A DNA stretch of 64,000 nucleotides from assembly GCA_043776875.1 (NCBI GenBank), contig JAYVQU010000039.1, forward strand, positions 29,239-93,238. The letters run 5' to 3'. This document shows positions 2,291-9,605 of the stretch, piece by piece. Made by a program: the position numbers and the translations under genes. This DNA is from Actinomycetes bacterium (GTDB lineage: Bacteria > Actinomycetota > Actinomycetes > Nanopelagicales > Nanopelagicaceae). The stretch's first letter is position 1; each line of letters opens with the position of its first letter. The notes beneath the pieces were generated by a model, which was given only the letters and a program-made list of their open reading frames with translations, had not been told where the DNA came from and made no database searches.

Positions 2291-2506
2291 ATCCCTCTCC
2301 GTTTCCGTGTCTTCTGAGTCTATCTGTCTATCTGAGTACTTCTATGGAACAGGAAACCACAGTTATTTATTCCCCGCTCGTTGTATTAAAAGAATTTTGC
2401 TTAATTAAGATTGAGTTAGTGCTGAGAATCATGATTTTCCACTATCTGAGATAAATTCGGCGCGCTTCCCTCAGATTTGGGGGTGAGGCGGTTAATCTTT
2501 CGCCCC

Positions 2507-4588
2507 ATGGCTGAAAAAGATGTAACTGCGAGCACTTTGCAAGATAGCTATACCGCGAAGGACCTAGCTGTACTCGAAGGCTTAGATGCAGTTCGCAAAC
2601 GTCCAGGTATGTATGTAGGTTCTACCGATTCACGTGGTCTGATGCACTGCCTATGGGAGATCATCGATAACTCAGTGGACGAGTCCTTGGCCGGACACTG
2701 TAAGAAAATTGAAATTAATCTGGAATCAGATGGGTCAGTTGAAGTTCATGATGATGGCCGCGGTATTCCAGTAGATAAAGAGCCAAAGACCGGTTTAACG
2801 GGTGTGGAAGTTGTGCTCACCAAATTGCACGCAGGCGGAAAGTTTGGTGGCGGCTCATACGCAGCCTCTGGCGGCTTACATGGTGTTGGTGCATCAGTTG
2901 TAAATGCACTTGCTTCCCGGCTTGATGTTGAAGTCGATCGCGATGGCAAGATTTATTGGATGTCATTTCAGCGCGGAACCGCTGGAATTTTTGATGGCGA
3001 AGGACCAAAAGCGCCTTTTGAAGCAAAATCAGGGTTGCGCATAATTGGAAAGATTTCTGCCAAAGTCACTGGAACACGCATTAAGTGGTGGAGTGATCGG
3101 CAGATCTTTTTAAAAGAGGCCGAACTTGATTTGGTAGATGTTTACGATCGCGCCCGACAAACTTCATACCTGGTGCCAGGATTAACCCTGATTGTTACTG
3201 ACAATCGAAGTAAAACTAAGACCACCGAAACCTTCTTCCATAAGAGCGGAATTACTGAGTACTGCAATTTTTTGCAACCAGATGAAGCCGTTGGCGATGT
3301 TATTCGTATTTACGGAACCGGCCATTATCAAGAAACGGTCCCGGTTCTTGATGACAAGGGCCATCTGGTCTCTACCGAAGTAGAGCGCGATATGGAGGTA
3401 GATATCGCGATGAAATGGGGCAATGGCTTTGAGACCACCCAGCGCTCCTTCGTTAACATAATTGCCACACCAAAGGGTGGAACACATGTGCTTGGTTTCG
3501 AACGTGCCTTAATTAAGGTTGTTAATGAGGCGCTTCGATCTACTAGGACGTTGGCCAACAAAGAGGCAGATGTAATTAAGGATGATGTAGTTGAAGGCCT
3601 GACAGCGGTGGTAACAGTTCGCATGTCTGAGCCACAGTTTGAAGGCCAGACAAAAGAAGTTCTAGGAACGGCTGCCGCAACTCGCATTGTTTCGGCAGTG
3701 GTTGCCGAAAAATTGAAGGAGTATTTCAACACTACTAAGCGAATCGATAAAGCGAATGGCCGTCTTGTCCTAGAAAAGATCGCAGCAGCATCGCGCACCC
3801 GCATTAGTGCGCGCGCCCACAAGGACCTGCAACGTCGTAAAAACGCACTGGAATCATCTTCGCTTCCTACAAAGCTCTCAGATTGCCGTTCAGAGGATGT
3901 AACGCGCACCGAGTTATTTATCGTAGAAGGCGATTCTGCACTAGGTACTACCAAGGCCGCACGCAATAGCGAGTTCCAAGCAATTTTGCCGATCCGTGGA
4001 AAGATTTTGAATGTGCAAAAGGCATCCCTTTCCCAGATGCTAGAAGATAAAGAGTGCGGATCAATCATTCAAGTAATTGGCGCAGGTTCTGGAAAATCCT
4101 TTGATTTAGCTGAAGCCCGGTATGGCCGCATAATCTTGATGTCAGATGCTGATGTCGACGGTGCCCACATTCGCTGTTTGTTGTTAACGCTTATGTATCG
4201 TTACATGCGACCTTTAATTGATTCAGGTCGGGTATTTGCGGCTATTCCACCGCTACACCGGATTGAAGTAATGGGTGGGGCTGGCAAGAAGGGCGATTAC
4301 ATTTATACCTACTCTGATGATGAAATGAAGAAGCTCACCGCTGATTTAAAGCAGCGCGGCAAGCGTTGGAAAGAGCCAATTCAGCGCTACAAAGGTCTTG
4401 GTGAAATGGATGCTGATCAGCTGCGTGAAACCACAATGGATCCAAATGCACGCACTTTGCGTCGCATCACGGTCTCGGATGCAACCGCAGCCGAAGCAAT
4501 GTTTGAGTTATTGATGGGGAGCGATGTTGCCCCGCGGAAAGAGTTTATTGCTAACGCTGAAATCGATCGCACGCATATCGACCTTTAA
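2507..4588 (+). CDS. parE: Type IIA topoisomerase B subunit (actinobacterial topo IV-like ParE/GyrB paralogue)
   Basis: GHKL motifs EIIDNSVDE, DDGRGIP, GGLHGVGASVVN; TOPRIM EGDSA, PIRGK, DADVDG; YKGLGEM. Start set to ATG 2507. ParE versus GyrB inferred from locus context. Confidence 0.88.
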   Translation: MAEKDVTASTLQDSYTAKDLAVLEGLDAVRKRPGMYVGSTDSRGLMHCLWEIIDNSVDESLAGHCKKIEINLESDGSVEVHDDGRGIPVDKEPKTGLTGVEVVLTKLHAGGKFGGGSYAASGGLHGVGASVVNALASRLDVEVDRDGKIYWMSFQRGTAGIFDGEGPKAPFEAKSGLRIIGKISAKVTGTRIKWWSDRQIFLKEAELDLVDVYDRARQTSYLVPGLTLIVTDNRSKTKTTETFFHKSGITEYCNFLQPDEAVGDVIRIYGTGHYQETVPVLDDKGHLVSTEVERDMEVDIAMKWGNGFETTQRSFVNIIATPKGGTHVLGFERALIKVVNEALRSTRTLANKEADVIKDDVVEGLTAVVTVRMSEPQFEGQTKEVLGTAAATRIVSAVVAEKLKEYFNTTKRIDKANGRLVLEKIAAASRTRISARAHKDLQRRKNALESSSLPTKLSDCRSEDVTRTELFIVEGDSALGTTKAARNSEFQAILPIRGKILNVQKASLSQMLEDKECGSIIQVIGAGSGKSFDLAEARYGRIILMSDADVDGAHIRCLLLTLMYRYMRPLIDSGRVFAAIPPLHRIEVMGGAGKKGDYIYTYSDDEMKKLTADLKQRGKRWKEPIQRYKGLGEMDADQLRETTMDPNARTLRRITVSDATAAEAMFELLMGSDVAPRKEFIANAEIDRTHIDL

Positions 4589-4608: not shown

Positions 4609-6207
4609 CTAGTCGATTGCAACTAAGTCCAAGTACTCATCCTTCCAAAAATCCTCATCGCCATCTGGCAACAAGATAACTCGCTCTGGCTTTAACGCTT
4701 GCACCGCGCCCTCATCATGCGAAACCATGATCACTGAACCTTGATACTCAGCTAAAGCGCCAAGAATCTGCGCACGAGATGCCGGGTCTAAGTTGTTAGT
4801 TGGTTCATCCAGCAGCAAAACATTTGCGGCAGAAACAACCAATACAGCAAGTGCTAAACGGGTTCGCTCGCCACCGGATAATACCTTTACTGGCTTATGA
4901 ACATCATCGCCGACAAACAAAAATGATCCCAAAGTATTTCGAGCTTCAGGTTCGCGAAGATCTGGGGTAGCCGACATCATGTTTTCCAAAACCGAACGTT
5001 CGAAATCAAGTGATTCGTGTTCTTGGGCGTAGTAACCAATTTTTAAACCATGGCCATGTTCAACTTTTCCGGTATCTGATTCAAGTTCACCGGCAAGGAT
5101 TCGAAGCAGGGTCGTTTTGCCGGCACCATTGAGTCCCAGAATTACCACCCGTGAACCTTTATCGATAACGCAGGAAACATCGGTAAAGATTTCCAGCGAA
5201 CCATAGTTCTTAGAAAGCTCTTCCCCAGATAGTGGCGTCTTTCCACATGGAGCTGGGGTAGGAAAGCGAAGTTTTGCAACTTTGTCGGCAATTCGAACAT
5301 CATCTAGGCCACTACGAAGCTTTTCTGCACGACGCAACATACCTTGTGCCGCGGTCGCCTTAGATGCCTTCGCCCGCATCTTCTCGCCCTGCTTTTGTAA
5401 AATCTCGGCGCGTTTTTCCGCGTTAGCCCGCTCTTTCTTGCGGCGATGCTCATCTTGCTCGCGCTGCAACAGATATGCTTTCCACCCTAAGTTGTAGACA
5501 TCAATAACATTGCGATTGGCATCAAGGTAAAACACCTTGTTTACGACAGTTTCAATTAATTTAACATCGTGAGAAATAATTACTAAGCCACCAGAATGTT
5601 TGGATAAGAATTCGCGCAGCCAAATGACGGAGTCTGCATCCAAGTGGTTTGTTGGCTCATCTAGCAGTAAAGTTTCGGCGCCACTAAATAGAATCCGGGC
5701 AAGCTCGATGCGGCGACGTTGCCCGCCAGAAAGAGTCGATAGTTCATTTGCAAAAACCGCCTCGGATACTCCAAGCGAGGTAGCTATTGCCTCGGCTTCA
5801 GCAGTTGCTGCGTACCCACCAGCAGCTGAAAACTCGGCCTCAACCCGGGTGTAGCGATCCATCGCCTTTTCTAACGCCTCATCTTGGGCAGTTGCCATTT
5901 CTTCCTCAACAGAGCGCATCCGAGCTGCAATCTGATCTAAATCACGAGCGGACAAAATTCGATCAATCACGGTGCCGGGTTCATCTCCAGTACGAGGATC
6001 TTGTGGAAGATAGCCAATTTTTCCGGTGCGATTTACTACACCACCGGCTGGCATCGTTTCACCTGCTAAAACTTTGGCCAGAGTTGATTTTCCAGCACCA
6101 TTGCGGCCCACAAAACCGATGCGATCACCGTTATTGATGCGAACAGTGACGCCTTTAACTAAAAGCCGGGGACCGGCTCTTAGTTCTAGTGCTTGCGTAG
6201 AAATCAC
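4609..6207 (-). CDS. ABC-F family ATPase (ribosome-associated, two NBDs, no TM segments)
   Basis: Two Walker A (GRNGAGKS, GLNGAGKT), two LSGG signatures, two LLDEPTN motifs, charged linker. Confidence 0.93.
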   Translation of the reverse strand: MISTQALELRAGPRLLVKGVTVRINNGDRIGFVGRNGAGKSTLAKVLAGETMPAGGVVNRTGKIGYLPQDPRTGDEPGTVIDRILSARDLDQIAARMRSVEEEMATAQDEALEKAMDRYTRVEAEFSAAGGYAATAEAEAIATSLGVSEAVFANELSTLSGGQRRRIELARILFSGAETLLLDEPTNHLDADSVIWLREFLSKHSGGLVIISHDVKLIETVVNKVFYLDANRNVIDVYNLGWKAYLLQREQDEHRRKKERANAEKRAEILQKQGEKMRAKASKATAAQGMLRRAEKLRSGLDDVRIADKVAKLRFPTPAPCGKTPLSGEELSKNYGSLEIFTDVSCVIDKGSRVVILGLNGAGKTTLLRILAGELESDTGKVEHGHGLKIGYYAQEHESLDFERSVLENMMSATPDLREPEARNTLGSFLFVGDDVHKPVKVLSGGERTRLALAVLVVSAANVLLLDEPTNNLDPASRAQILGALAEYQGSVIMVSHDEGAVQALKPERVILLPDGDEDFWKDEYLDLVAID

Positions 6208-6228
6208 AGTTAAGTCTAGCTAGTTGGA

Positions 6229-7761
6229 TTAAGCAGCACCAATTCGGGTACGACGAGGTGCAGCAAATGACTTACCAACCGTAGTTAGTTCAGCAGATAC
6301 CTGCGTTTTAATCGCCTCTTCACTCTTGAGTAGTTTTGTTAACTCAGCGATCAAACTTACGAGTTCCTTTTGCTCGCTTTCAAGTTCAATCTTGCTCATC
6401 TTAGTCAAACGGCGAAGCGGCATATCCAAGATATAAGTTGCTTGTTCCTCATTTAATGTTAACTCCTTAATCAACTTGTCTTTAGCTTGCGCTGTGTCAT
6501 CACTTCCGCGAATTATCTTGATAACCTTATCGATATTTATAATTGCTTTTAATAATCCATCCACCAAGCCAAGACGTGCTTGTGCTCTGGCTTTGCGAAA
6601 CTCAGAACGTCGGCGCACAACTTCAATGCGGTGATCGATAAATACTTTAAGTAACTCTTTCAAACCAAGTGTTTGTGGCCTGCCCTTAACTAAAGCAACA
6701 GCATTGATAGCAAATGTATCCTCCATTGGAGTCAATGCATATAGTTTTTCAAGAACCTCTTCTGGTTCAAAGCCATTTTTGATTTCAATAACAACATTTG
6801 TGCCGGTTTGGCCATCGGTTAAGTCAATGATGTCGCTGATGCCTTGAATCTTCTTGTTTTTCACTAAGGCTGCAATTCGCTCGACCACCTTTTCTGGTCC
6901 AATTGTGAACGGAAGTTCTTTAATGATTATTCCCATCTTGCGGGAGGTAACTTTTCCAATTTCAACAGTTGCACGAACCTTAAATGATCCCTTGCCAGTT
7001 GCATAAGCCTCGCGGACTCCATCTAGTCCAACTATTTCTCCACCTGTTGGAAAATCTGGACCTGGCATAAATTTCATCAACTGCTTAACAGTCGCAGTTG
7101 GGTTCGCAATTAAGAACTTTGTGGCGGCTATAACTTCGGCCAAATTATGCGGAGCCATATTTGTGGCCATTCCAACTGCAATTCCGGAACCACCATTAAC
7201 AAGCAGGTTTGGATATGCCGCAGGTAAAACAATTGGCTCCGAAAGTTGACCATCATAGTTGGGACCAAAATCAACGGTGTCTTCATCGGATTCTGCGACC
7301 ATTGACATTGCAGCTGGGGCTAACCGGGCTTCGGTGTAGCGCATAGCAGCCGGACCCGCATCTAAAGAACCGAAGTTTCCGTGACCATCAATTAATGGCA
7401 ACCCCATTGAAAAACTTTGCGCCATACGAACAAGTGCGTCATAAATCGCACCATCACCGTGTGGGTGCAACTTACCCATAACTTCACCGACAACACGCGC
7501 ACTCTTTACATGTCCACGTTCTGGACGCAAACCCATATCGGCCATCTGATGAAGGATGCGACGGTGAACTGGTTTTAAGCCATCGCGAGCATCAGGTAAA
7601 GCACGTGAATAAATCACTGAGTATGCATATTCAAGAAAAGATTCAGAAACCTCTTTGGAAACATCGATGTCAACGATCTTTCCCGGATATTCACCAGGTT
7701 TTGGGCCGGCTGGTTTCTTACCTTTAGTCGCAGTTTTTGCGGGAGTCTTCGCAGTTGCCAT
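6229..7761 (-). CDS. parC: Type IIA topoisomerase A subunit (ParC/GyrA-like), breakage-reunion domain only, no C-terminal pinwheel
   Basis: RALPDARDGLKPVHRR, GKLHPHGD, catalytic AAMRYTEARL, NGGSGIAVGMAT; ends at APRRTRIGAA, 510 aa. Confidence 0.88.
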   Translation of the reverse strand: MATAKTPAKTATKGKKPAGPKPGEYPGKIVDIDVSKEVSESFLEYAYSVIYSRALPDARDGLKPVHRRILHQMADMGLRPERGHVKSARVVGEVMGKLHPHGDGAIYDALVRMAQSFSMGLPLIDGHGNFGSLDAGPAAMRYTEARLAPAAMSMVAESDEDTVDFGPNYDGQLSEPIVLPAAYPNLLVNGGSGIAVGMATNMAPHNLAEVIAATKFLIANPTATVKQLMKFMPGPDFPTGGEIVGLDGVREAYATGKGSFKVRATVEIGKVTSRKMGIIIKELPFTIGPEKVVERIAALVKNKKIQGISDIIDLTDGQTGTNVVIEIKNGFEPEEVLEKLYALTPMEDTFAINAVALVKGRPQTLGLKELLKVFIDHRIEVVRRRSEFRKARAQARLGLVDGLLKAIINIDKVIKIIRGSDDTAQAKDKLIKELTLNEEQATYILDMPLRRLTKMSKIELESEQKELVSLIAELTKLLKSEEAIKTQVSAELTTVGKSFAAPRRTRIGAA

Positions 7762-7786: not shown

Positions 7787-8668
7787 TTAATTCAGGGGAG
7801 GGCGCGCCCCAACGGATGAAACACACTTAGCAGCAAGGGCTGCACCTGCAGTTAGGGCTTGCGTTAAATCATTTGTTTCTAGCCACTTAGGAATAAAACC
7901 TGCCGCAAATGAATCACCAGCCCCAGTTGTATCGACCACATTTGTTGTGACCGCCGAAACCTTTGCCGAGACCCCATCCTTAATGGCCATGGCACCTTTG
8001 GAACCTAATTTAATAACCACAAGTGGTACGAACTTTAACAAATTATGTTCAGCGGTTTCCACATCGGCGGCGCCGCCAAGATATAAAGCCTCTTCACTAT
8101 TTAATAAGATGCCATCCATCAGTGCGACCCATGATAAAACTTCATCCCTAGATACGATCTTCATCGCACCCGTAGTGGTTGGATCAAAAAAGATTGGTTT
8201 TCCGGACACTTTGATCTTCTTAATCATTGCTAAAACTGCATCACGGCTGCGGAAATCAAGGAGTGCATATCCACTGATGTAGACACCATCGATGTCATCA
8301 AGTGGTGGAAGATCGCTAGCCTCTAAATCGGCATTTGCCCCATTATCTGGAAACATCGTGCGCTCACCATTTGCATCAACGAGGATAACAACTACGCCAG
8401 TTGGCCGACCGGAGTGCATCAAATTTAAATGCGCTACACCGTATTTATCGAGGTCAGAGATAAGTGCAAAGCCAACTGGATCGTTGCCGGTGCGAGCAAC
8501 CAAATGGGCTTTTGAGTTTGTGCGAGTAATCCAGGTTGCTACGTTGGCTGCTTGCCCACCCGGATGGCTGGAAATTTTACTTGCAGTATCATTGCCGTAA
8601 TTAATTGGTTCCTTTAGTTGGGAAATGACATCGAGGGCTAAATCGCCAATGCACAGGATCTTTTTCAT
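7787..8668 (-). CDS. PfkB-family kinase, probable pseudouridine kinase
   Basis: PGGQAANVA, GNDPVG, NSEEA, VDTTGAGDSFAAG. Start overlaps the psuG stop. Substrate inferred from the neighbour. Confidence 0.8.
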   Translation of the reverse strand: MKKILCIGDLALDVISQLKEPINYGNDTASKISSHPGGQAANVATWITRTNSKAHLVARTGNDPVGFALISDLDKYGVAHLNLMHSGRPTGVVVILVDANGERTMFPDNGANADLEASDLPPLDDIDGVYISGYALLDFRSRDAVLAMIKKIKVSGKPIFFDPTTTGAMKIVSRDEVLSWVALMDGILLNSEEALYLGGAADVETAEHNLLKFVPLVVIKLGSKGAMAIKDGVSAKVSAVTTNVVDTTGAGDSFAAGFIPKWLETNDLTQALTAGAALAAKCVSSVGARPPLN

Positions 8669-9567
8669 AGTAGCGCAACCGCAATCTCTGTCGCCAAGGC
8701 GCAGTTTGATTTTATGATTTCAGTATTTATAATTAGCGATTCACCCTTGGATGCGATGTGAAAATACTCCAATAAATAAGGCGTAACAGCCTTGCCTGTA
8801 ATTCCATCTCGCTTTGCACTCGCCAAGCCACTTGTCAAAATTTCATCGTGGCGCGCCTTCGGCATCTCTTTTACTACCGGATTTGCAACTATTAATGATT
8901 TTAATTGAGTGGCAACGGCGGTACGCGCTTTAATGATTGCGGCAATATCTGCTGCATTTTCAACTCGATGTTCGATCGTGAATCCAGAATCGGTCAGGTA
9001 AAAACCTGGGAAAGCGTTGGTCCTATAACCGACTAGTCCAATAGCCAATGTTTCTAACCGTTCCAGAGTTGCGTGAACATCCAAAATTGACTTTACCCCT
9101 GCACACACAACAGTCATATCTAATTGTGATAGTGCGGTCAGATCTGCTGACTCATCGTATGAATCGGATGCACCGCGGTGAACTCCGCCTAAACCACCAG
9201 TAGCAAAAACTTTTATGCCAGCGGTAGCCGCAATGTGAGCGGTAGCCGCAACAGTTGTCGCTGCGCTTTTGCCCTGCGCAACTATTATCGCCAAGTCTCG
9301 AATAGATGCTTTAGCAATGTCATCGCGGTTGGCGATTTCTGCCAGCTCTTGATGTTCCAGGCCGATCAAAATCTTTCCATCTAGCAATGCAATCGTTGCC
9401 GGAATGGCCCCACCAACTCGAACAATGCGCTCACACTCCAGCGCAACCTCAAGATTTGAAGGGCGTGGCAAACCATGGCTAATAATCGTAGATTCAAGAG
9501 CAACTATTGGTTTCCCAGTTTCTAACGCTGCCGCAACTTCACGTGAATACTTGATTGGATTGACCAT
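8665..9567 (-). CDS. psuG: Pseudouridine-5'-phosphate glycosidase
   Basis: VALESTIISHGLP, GGLGGVHRG, SADL, VCAGVKSILD, TPYLL. Start set to ATG 9567, 6 nt after TAGAGT. Confidence 0.93.
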   Translation of the reverse strand: MVNPIKYSREVAAALETGKPIVALESTIISHGLPRPSNLEVALECERIVRVGGAIPATIALLDGKILIGLEHQELAEIANRDDIAKASIRDLAIIVAQGKSAATTVAATAHIAATAGIKVFATGGLGGVHRGASDSYDESADLTALSQLDMTVVCAGVKSILDVHATLERLETLAIGLVGYRTNAFPGFYLTDSGFTIEHRVENAADIAAIIKARTAVATQLKSLIVANPVVKEMPKARHDEILTSGLASAKRDGITGKAVTPYLLEYFHIASKGESLIINTEIIKSNCALATEIAVALL

Positions 9568-9605
9568 GGACAAACTCTAGTACACAGTCGTGGGAAGATA
9601 AGCAG

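What the first reader, a model, noticed from the sequence alone, without database searches (positions are those of the whole stretch)
6229..7761. Type IIA topoisomerase A subunit lacking the entire C-terminal beta-pinwheel
The 510-aa protein has an intact active site (RYTEARL) and ends at APRRTRIGAA-stop. The RRT motif marks the end of the breakage-reunion domain in GyrA/ParC, where about 300 aa of CTD normally follow. Only 21 nt separate the stop from the next gene's start, so no frameshifted CTD is hiding there. Without a CTD it cannot wrap DNA like gyrase and would lack the topo IV crossing-geometry sensor. It would be a naturally minimal relaxase/decatenase, closer in architecture to phage-type topo II.
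Basis: partly seen in the sequence, partly recalled or inferred. Interest (0 to 1): 0.62.

Follow-up and report, generated by a model that had tools for sequence, protein, structure and literature searches.

The report
Naturally tail-less topoisomerase IV subunit
Most genera of the abundant freshwater actinobacterial family Nanopelagicaceae, including Candidatus Planktophila, carry a working topoisomerase IV A subunit (ParC) that lost its whole DNA-guiding C-terminal domain once, long ago; the same kind of loss is already on record for Chlamydia.

Summary

**What is there**
- The 510-aa protein has one Pfam domain, the complete breakage-reunion domain, with Arg141-Tyr142 intact.
- It stops five residues after PRRT. 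21 nt then separate it from an ABC-F gene.

**It is not an artefact**
- All 79 Planktophila loci that contain the 3' end stop at the same place.
- Dozens of single-contig genomes have a 505-600 aa open frame.
- 13 sampled genera with the short form make one clade (100/100 support).
- Two basal genera of the family, and the sampled orthologues in the rest of the class, keep an 820-880 aa protein.
- dN/dS is 0.03.

**No CTD elsewhere**
- The only beta-pinwheel in this 99.98%-complete genome belongs to canonical GyrA, which has the GyrA box.
- The CTDs of full-length orthologues are detectable and lack a GyrA box, so the ancestor was ParC-type.

**How it most likely works**
With the intact ParE 2 kb away, it probably forms a minimal ATP-dependent decatenase/relaxase without chirality sensing.

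**Novelty**
A 2021 review already states that Chlamydia Topo IV has no CTD. This is a new member of a known kind: well supported but only moderately surprising. A possible compensating gain of positive charge is suggestive only.

The parts
6229..7761 (-). parC-short: type IIA topoisomerase A subunit, 510 aa. It has the breakage-reunion domain only (WHD, tower, coiled coil/C-gate) and no beta-pinwheel CTD.
   Evidence: dN/dS is 0.029 over 53 Planktophila genes.
7678..7761 (-). N-terminal Lys/Pro-rich tail, MATAKTPAKTATKGKKPAGPKPGEYPGK (aa 1-28, 7 Lys). It is longer and more basic than in full-length orthologues. It may add DNA affinity; this is inference.
   Evidence: Tails compared. Tail dN/dS is 0.06. 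Coordinates checked.
7336..7341 (-). Codons of Arg141-Tyr142, the catalytic pair of the DNA-cleavage site (RYTE).
   Evidence: Invariant in all 19 aligned orthologues.
6229..6258 (-). The protein's end at the NTD/CTD boundary: PRRT (aa 502-505), then RIGAA, then the TAA stop (6229-6231).
   Evidence: All 79 Planktophila loci that contain the end stop 5 aa after R(R/K)T. The other genera stop 3-12 aa after it.
6208..6228 (.). 21-nt spacer between the parC-short stop and the start of the ABC-F gene. It leaves no room for a hidden CTD.
   Evidence: tblastn with four orthologous CTDs finds nothing better than E~0.05 in the window or in the short-clade loci whose results could be read; the printout was cut in the middle.
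2477..4588 (+). parE: the partner B subunit. The ORF is 703 aa; the likely ATG start is at 2507. It has the GHKL ATPase, transducer, TOPRIM and C-terminal domains, with the catalytic motifs present.
   Evidence: Pfam and NCBIfam. Motifs EIIDNSVDE, DDGRGIP, GGLHGVG, QTK, EGDSA and DADVDG are seen. The sigA-parE / parC-pfkB-psuG synteny is conserved, in full or in part, in 16 of the 18 fetched loci.

Best explanation
This is the actinobacterial topoisomerase IV A subunit (ParC) of Candidatus Planktophila (acI-A, Nanopelagicaceae). The roughly 320-residue beta-pinwheel C-terminal domain was removed once, in the common ancestor of most genera of the family.

What remains is a complete breakage-reunion domain with the catalytic Arg-Tyr pair. 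It has been kept under strong purifying selection.

The mechanism below is inferred. Two copies pair with two copies of the intact ParE encoded about 2 kb away. The resulting ParC2ParE2 enzyme passes one duplex through a transient double-strand break in another, using ATP. Its jobs would be to unlink replicated chromosomes and relax supercoils. Without the CTD it should bind DNA more weakly, be less processive, and have no preference for positive over negative crossings. In effect it is a natural equivalent of the engineered GyrA59/ParC-deltaCTD enzymes. Negative supercoiling is left to the separate canonical gyrase (gyrB-gyrA on another contig).

A longer, Lys-rich N-terminal tail and a less acidic core may partly make up for the lost DNA-binding surface. 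This is tentative.
For: **Shown here**
- Domain content and boundary.
- Catalytic motifs are invariant.
- Orthology to ParC: conserved synteny sigA-parE / parC-pfkB-psuG and 60-72% identity to 820-880 aa orthologues.
- The CTDs of those orthologues score 53-73 bits on PF03989 but lack a GyrA box.
- The genome's own GyrA (836 aa) has six blades and QRRGGRG.
- The genome holds exactly two A and two B subunit genes.
- There is no other CTD in a 99.98%-complete genome. The single weak hit lies in a 218-aa ORF beside a gene that looks, by eye only, like a 2-oxoacid:ferredoxin oxidoreductase subunit.
- One loss: 13 short genera form a clade with 100/100 support and one state change.
- The loss is present in dozens of single-contig genomes.
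- None of the ~130 listed orthologues outside the family, from a sample of 301 genomes of the class, is CTD-less.
- dN/dS is 0.029, and the stop position is identical in 79 loci.

**From the literature**
- Removing the CTDs of gyrase or Topo IV gives simple ATP-dependent relaxases without chirality preference and with lower DNA affinity (PMC8216471).

**Suggestive**
- Core net charge is -1.2 in the short clade against -8.2 in full-length forms, while ParE is unchanged.
- Four of the five clade-fixed substitutions are to Lys.
Against: - The activity profile is extrapolated from engineered deletions in other species.
- The charge argument rests on a single evolutionary event. One full-length basal genus (g31) already has a core charge of -2. 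The CTDs that were lost are net acidic overall.
- A non-homologous partner that replaces the CTD cannot be excluded by sequence searches.
Confidence: 0.8

Rival explanations
1. The short gene is an assembly artefact, a sequencing error or a recent pseudogene of a normal ~820-aa parC.
For: The window comes from a 57-contig draft genome. Distant relatives have 820-880 aa orthologues.
Against: The same stop position occurs in 79 independent Planktophila assemblies and in dozens of single-contig genomes. The short form is shared by 13 sampled genera that make one clade. dN/dS is 0.029. No CTD remnant lies downstream.
Confidence: 0.01
2. The CTD is supplied in trans. Either a split-off CTD gene exists elsewhere in the genome, or an unrelated DNA-binding partner has taken over its role.
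For: Split topoisomerase genes exist in nature; from my own knowledge, phage T4 topo II is encoded by three genes. Sequence searches cannot detect a non-homologous replacement.
Against: Six-frame PF03989 and orthologous-CTD searches of the 99.98%-complete genome find only the canonical GyrA pinwheel. The positive control works: the orthologous CTDs score 53-73 bits. No new gene is consistently linked to parC-short. The ABC-F neighbour was found next to parC in only two of the 13 sampled short-form genera.
Confidence: 0.08
3. The truncated protein no longer acts as a classical Topo IV. It might pair with GyrB or form mixed complexes with GyrA, or serve a non-catalytic DNA-binding or regulatory role.
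For: Loss of a major domain often goes with a change of function. The clade-specific Lys substitutions and the new N-terminal tail show some remodelling.
Against: All catalytic and gate motifs of both ParC-short and ParE are intact and conserved. The core is exactly 477 aa, without indels, in all 19 orthologues. The parE-parC linkage is kept in 15 of the 18 fetched loci. Selection is as strong as expected for an essential enzyme.
Confidence: 0.05

Closest known systems
Chlamydia topoisomerase IV ParC (no CTD), as stated in Hirsch & Klostermeier 2021, PMC8216471
   Same: It is a cellular, chromosomally encoded Topo IV A subunit with zero beta-pinwheel blades. It sits in a small genome that also has a normal gyrase.
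   Different: It belongs to a different phylum, so the loss was independent. Here the loss can be dated inside one family, with full-length sister genera still alive for comparison. The host is a free-living, cultivable planktonic bacterium.
Engineered CTD deletions: E. coli GyrA59 + GyrB, and ParC-deltaCTD + ParE (discussed in PMC8216471)
   Same: The end point is the same, right after the RRT motif. The PDB constructs of 480-525 aa align with residues 28-507. The engineered enzymes are ATP-dependent relaxases/decatenases without chirality preference and with lower DNA affinity.
   Different: They are laboratory constructs, whereas this protein is natural and has had a long time to adapt. It has a Lys-rich N-terminal tail and a core that is about +7 less acidic.
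Full-length actinobacterial ParC, ~820-880 aa, NCBIfam NF004044 subfamily
   Same: It is orthologous: 60-72% identity over the core and the same synteny. The window protein scores above the NF004044 cut-off, 713.9 against 654.
   Different: About 320 C-terminal residues carrying PF03989 blades are missing.
Phage T4-type topoisomerase II (gp39/gp60/gp52) and mobile-element type IIA enzymes
   Same: The A-type subunit has no beta-pinwheel (my own knowledge for T4 gp52). A comparable 499-aa CTD-less A subunit on a 215-kb, apparently mobile-element-like contig turned up here.
   Different: The window protein is not phage-derived. It is a vertically inherited ParC orthologue, only 45% identical to the mobile-element protein, and sits in a conserved chromosomal context.

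Membership tests
Type IIA topoisomerase A subunit (GyrA/ParC superfamily, Pfam PF00521) | A complete DNA_topoisoIV breakage-reunion domain | tested here: met
   PF00521 covers residues 53-492 and profile positions 1-431 of 432, E 1.4e-150. Alignment to PDB GyrA/ParC N-terminal domains covers 28-507.
Type IIA topoisomerase A subunit (GyrA/ParC superfamily, Pfam PF00521) | Catalytic Arg-Tyr (RYTE) and conserved WHD motifs | tested here: met
   R141, Y142, HPHGD and RDGLKPV(H/Q)RR are invariant in 19 orthologues.
Type IIA topoisomerase A subunit (GyrA/ParC superfamily, Pfam PF00521) | A cognate B subunit with ATPase and TOPRIM domains | tested here: met
   parE at 2477-4588 has HATPase_c, DNA_gyraseB, Toprim and DNA_gyraseB_C. 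Its motifs are intact. The linkage is conserved.
Actinobacterial topoisomerase IV ParC (orthologous group; NCBIfam NF004044) | Orthology by score, synteny and phylogeny | tested here: met
   NF004044 scores 713.9 bits against a cut-off of 654. Synteny is shared with full-length orthologues. The protein nests inside the ParC tree of the family.
Actinobacterial topoisomerase IV ParC (orthologous group; NCBIfam NF004044) | A C-terminal beta-pinwheel (PF03989 blades) without a GyrA box | tested here: not met
   The protein has no PF03989 hit. Orthologous CTDs score 53-73 bits and have no GyrA box. The protein is therefore an orthologue with a derived, reduced architecture.
Actinobacterial topoisomerase IV ParC (orthologous group; NCBIfam NF004044) | ATP-dependent decatenation/relaxation activity | not testable with these tools
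   This needs purified ParC-short plus ParE.
DNA gyrase GyrA (TIGR01063 / NF004043 equivalogs) | A score above the equivalog cut-off, plus a six-bladed CTD with a GyrA box | tested here: not met
   TIGR01063 scores 647 against a cut-off of 877, and NF004043 scores 667 against 902. There is no CTD. The true GyrA (836 aa, QRRGGRG) is on another contig.
Naturally CTD-less Topo IV (the Chlamydia precedent) | A cellular ParC with zero blades and no trans-encoded CTD | tested here: met
   for this genome. The precedent itself is taken from PMC8216471 and was not re-examined here.

The most novel reading that the evidence does not exclude
The CTD loss was followed by adaptive remodelling. A Lys/Pro-rich N-terminal tail and about seven extra positive charges per core protomer would restore DNA capture. 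The Nanopelagicaceae enzyme would then be a compensated minimal bacterial type IIA topoisomerase, with its ancestral full-length form still living in sister genera. That would give a natural before-and-after pair for asking what the ParC CTD is really needed for in vivo.
Probability: 0.25. Interest if true: 0.5.

Novelty: new member of a known kind. Interest (0 to 1): 0.36.

Why it matters
The ParC CTD is regarded as the element that gives Topo IV its substrate discrimination and processivity.

This case shows a free-living and very abundant bacterial lineage that has done without it since before the split of at least 13 sampled genera. So the domain is dispensable for a cellular decatenase outside obligate intracellular bacteria.

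Full-length orthologues survive in two basal genera of the same family. Cultured, closed-genome strains also exist. The lineage therefore offers a clean natural comparison for biochemistry on chirality sensing, processivity and DNA affinity.

It also matters for annotation. These proteins are labelled only as 'DNA gyrase/topoisomerase IV subunit A' or 'DNA gyrase subunit A'.

Tried and rejected
- **Split CTD gene.** PF03989 and an orthologous ParC CTD were searched in six frames over the whole genome. Only the GyrA pinwheel was found. The 18-bit hit on contig C1 is a chance match in a 218-aa ORF next to a gene that looks, by eye only, like a 2-oxoacid:ferredoxin oxidoreductase subunit.
- **CTD relics.** tblastn with four CTDs, word size 2, gave nothing better than E about 0.05 downstream of the stop in the window or in the short-clade loci whose results could be read; the printout was cut in the middle. 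In the two earliest-branching short genera the space between parC and parE holds an unrelated ~420-aa ORF that I did not characterise.
- **Misassembly.** Rejected.
- **Compensating changes in ParE.** Only a 2-residue C-terminal deletion and four point differences are clade-specific, and net charge is unchanged.
- **GC drift as the cause of the charge shift.** Short genera at 53-55% GC still have core charges of -1 and -2. The two full-length basal genera, at about 54% GC, have -8/-9 (g23) and -2 (g31). GC drift is therefore neither excluded nor sufficient.
- **Structure prediction.** Not run. The fold is not in doubt given E 1e-144 end-to-end matches to solved structures. Without DNA-complex coordinates the Lys substitutions could not be mapped.
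- **TopoNM of M. smegmatis.** Considered as a relative, but its domain architecture could not be verified from the one review that was read.
- **Earlier notes of this scan.** None concerned this locus.
- **Literature.** Searches for Nanopelagicales, Planktophila or Nanopelagicus together with topoisomerase found no report of this feature in the held library.

Full report
**1. The observation**

- The ORF lies at 6229..7761 on the minus strand. It encodes 510 aa with an ATG start and a TAA stop.
- Pfam finds a single domain, DNA_topoisoIV (PF00521), over residues 53-492 and profile positions 1-431 of 432. No DNA_gyraseA_C blade is found.
- NCBIfam models for GyrA and ParC, which are 735-800 positions long, are matched only over their first ~477-481 positions. 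The protein still passes the cut-off of the subfamily model NF004044, 'DNA topoisomerase (ATP-hydrolyzing)', with 713.9 bits against 654. It fails the GyrA and ParC equivalog cut-offs.
- Against the PDB it aligns from residue 28 to 507 with the N-terminal GyrA/ParC constructs that crystallographers cut out (480-525 aa, best E 1e-144). Those constructs also end right after the RRT motif.
- The catalytic pair is Arg141-Tyr142, at 7336-7341. The protein ends ...APRRT-RIGAA-stop. 21 nt then separate it from the GTG start of an ABC-F ATPase gene.

**2. Context and organism**

- On the plus strand upstream lie a principal sigma factor (154-1866) and a 703-aa GyrB/ParE-type B subunit (2477-4588). The B subunit has all four Pfam domains. 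Its ATPase and TOPRIM motifs are intact.
- On the minus strand, parC-short is preceded by a PfkB kinase gene and a gene with the Pfam Indigoidine_A domain. I read that one as a pseudouridine-5'-phosphate glycosidase and call it psuG.
- Record titles of near-identical loci name Candidatus Planktophila, of the Nanopelagicaceae. I know this group as the freshwater acI-A lineage. Several of these records are complete chromosomes.
- The window's genome is 1.8 Mb and 99.98% complete. It holds exactly two A-subunit genes and two B-subunit genes. One pair is gyrB next to an 836-aa gyrA with six PF03989 blades and a GyrA box (QRRGGRG). The other is the parE/parC-short pair in this window.

**3. It is not an artefact, and no CTD is hidden elsewhere**

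- All 79 related Planktophila loci that contain the 3' end stop five residues after R(R/K)T. The 53 full-length gene copies that were extracted all use TAA.
- In genome scans, every orthologue in the genus has an open frame of about 505-600 aa. These include dozens of single-contig genomes.
- A six-frame scan of the whole genome with PF03989 finds only the GyrA blades, plus one 18-bit chance hit. That hit lies in a 218-aa ORF next to a gene that looks, by eye only, like a 2-oxoacid:ferredoxin oxidoreductase subunit.
- The positive control works. The C-terminal 317-322 residues of four full-length orthologues score 53-73 bits on PF03989. One of them, used as a query against the window's genome, again finds only the GyrA CTD.
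- tblastn with these CTDs finds no relic in the window or in the short-clade loci whose results could be read; the printout was cut in the middle.

**4. Evolutionary history**

- The synteny sigA-parE / parC-pfkB-psuG, or part of it, is seen in 16 of the 18 fetched loci, in short and full-length lineages alike. This establishes orthology.
- Within the family, most sampled genera have the short form. Two genera keep 819-823 aa proteins; their genomes are 1.6-2.1 Mb and the fetched loci have ~54% GC.
- A maximum-likelihood tree of ParC core plus ParE puts the 13 short genera in one clade with 100/100 support. The two full-length genera branch below it. One change of state is enough.
- In a sample of 301 genomes of the class, 217 have an orthologue. 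About 130 orthologues from outside the family were listed, and none is CTD-less. The two shortest open frames are 608 aa (at a contig end) and 693 aa. Further matches were not listed.
- Among the 150 nearest 50%-identity clusters of 1.8 billion proteins, only the protein's own cluster and one other bacterial protein (P0118) are genuinely CTD-less.
- Within Planktophila, dN/dS is 0.029 overall. It is 0.02-0.03 in the WHD, tower and coiled coil, 0.06 in the N-terminal tail, and 0.14 in the last 15 residues.
- The core from IVDIDV to PRRT is exactly 477 residues in 18 of the 19 orthologues, short and long alike, and 479 in one outgroup.

The CTD was therefore excised cleanly, once, long ago. The remainder has been kept as a working enzyme.

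**5. What it was and how it most likely works**

- The CTDs of the full-length orthologues lack a GyrA box. The ancestor was therefore a Topo IV-type enzyme, not a DNA-wrapping one.
- The review PMC8216471 summarises the experiments on CTD removal. [quoted passage not shown] DNA affinity also falls.
- By inference, ParC-short2-ParE2 is an ATP-dependent decatenase/relaxase with reduced processivity and no chirality sensing. It works alongside a canonical gyrase.
- The activity itself is not shown here.

**6. A possible compensation (tentative)**

- In the short clade the N-terminal tail is 16-28 residues long with 2-8 lysines. In full-length orthologues it is 7-18 residues with little net charge.
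- The 477-aa core has a mean net charge of -1.2 in the short clade (range -5 to +4). In full-length orthologues the mean is -8.2 (range -12 to -2). ParE shows no such shift.
- Four of the five substitutions that are fixed in the short clade and absent from full-length forms are to Lys: positions 226, 230, 270 and 415.
- Against this: it is one evolutionary event, one basal full-length genus is already at -2, and GC drift towards Lys cannot be fully separated.

I treat it as a hypothesis, not a finding.

**7. Comparison with what is known**

[quoted passage not shown] A naturally CTD-less cellular ParC is therefore a known kind.
- No paper in the held library links Nanopelagicales, Planktophila or Nanopelagicus with this feature.
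- Public annotations call the protein only 'DNA gyrase/topoisomerase IV subunit A' or 'DNA gyrase subunit A'.
- This is a second, independent instance in a free-living lineage, and the loss can be placed inside one family.

**8. Verdict**

- It is a new member of a known kind, of moderate interest.
- Its main use would be as a natural experiment on what the ParC CTD is needed for.

Noticed in passing
L118:6001-9482 (ENA ERZ27237206 contig k141_25050, 215,833 bp): A second, unrelated CTD-less A subunit: P0118, 499 aa, 45% identical, ending ...PRKTAIGAPAA. Its 3' end overlaps the start of a 661-aa GyrB-like gene. The pair sits beside a DnaE-type polymerase, DUF932, DnaJ and an AAA_10 (conjugation-type) ATPase. 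This looks like a large plasmid, ICE or phage-like element that carries its own minimal type IIA topoisomerase.
   Followed up: partly
window 7447-7449 (codon 105 of parC-short; motif HPHGDGAIYD): By my own knowledge of the motif, the position equivalent to E. coli GyrA Ser83 is Gly in the window. It is Gly in 77 of 80 related Planktophila loci and Ser in 3. This is natural variation at the classical quinolone-contact residue.
   Followed up: partly
window 4609-6207 (-): An ABC-F (duplicated ATPase) gene lies between parE and parC-short. It was found there only in this genus and one other of the sampled genera. In several other short-form genera parE and parC converge tail to tail, 12-56 bp apart.
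   Followed up: partly
window 7787-9573 (-): A PfkB kinase gene and a gene with the Pfam Indigoidine_A domain sit directly upstream of parC. I read them as a pseudouridine-catabolism pair (psuK/psuG). The pair, or part of it, lies next to parC in 13 of the 18 fetched loci, including two outside the family. The 25-nt gap suggests possible co-transcription with parC.
   Followed up: no
other genomes of the class: Many ParC orthologues and nearest-cluster representatives are 1,000-2,100 aa, and their match to the query is split at residue ~135-141, just before the catalytic Tyr. This fits inteins inserted at the active site, as known for GyrA (NCBIfam NF038098). I did not examine them.
   Followed up: no
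G057, G085, G098 (one genus of the family) and G011: Three genomes of one genus show one in-frame TAA inside the match. I guess that the match there runs upstream of the true start into the N-terminal tail region, but I did not check. One MAG (G011) has parC-short split at a TGA. These are likely alignment overrun and MAG error respectively.
   Followed up: no
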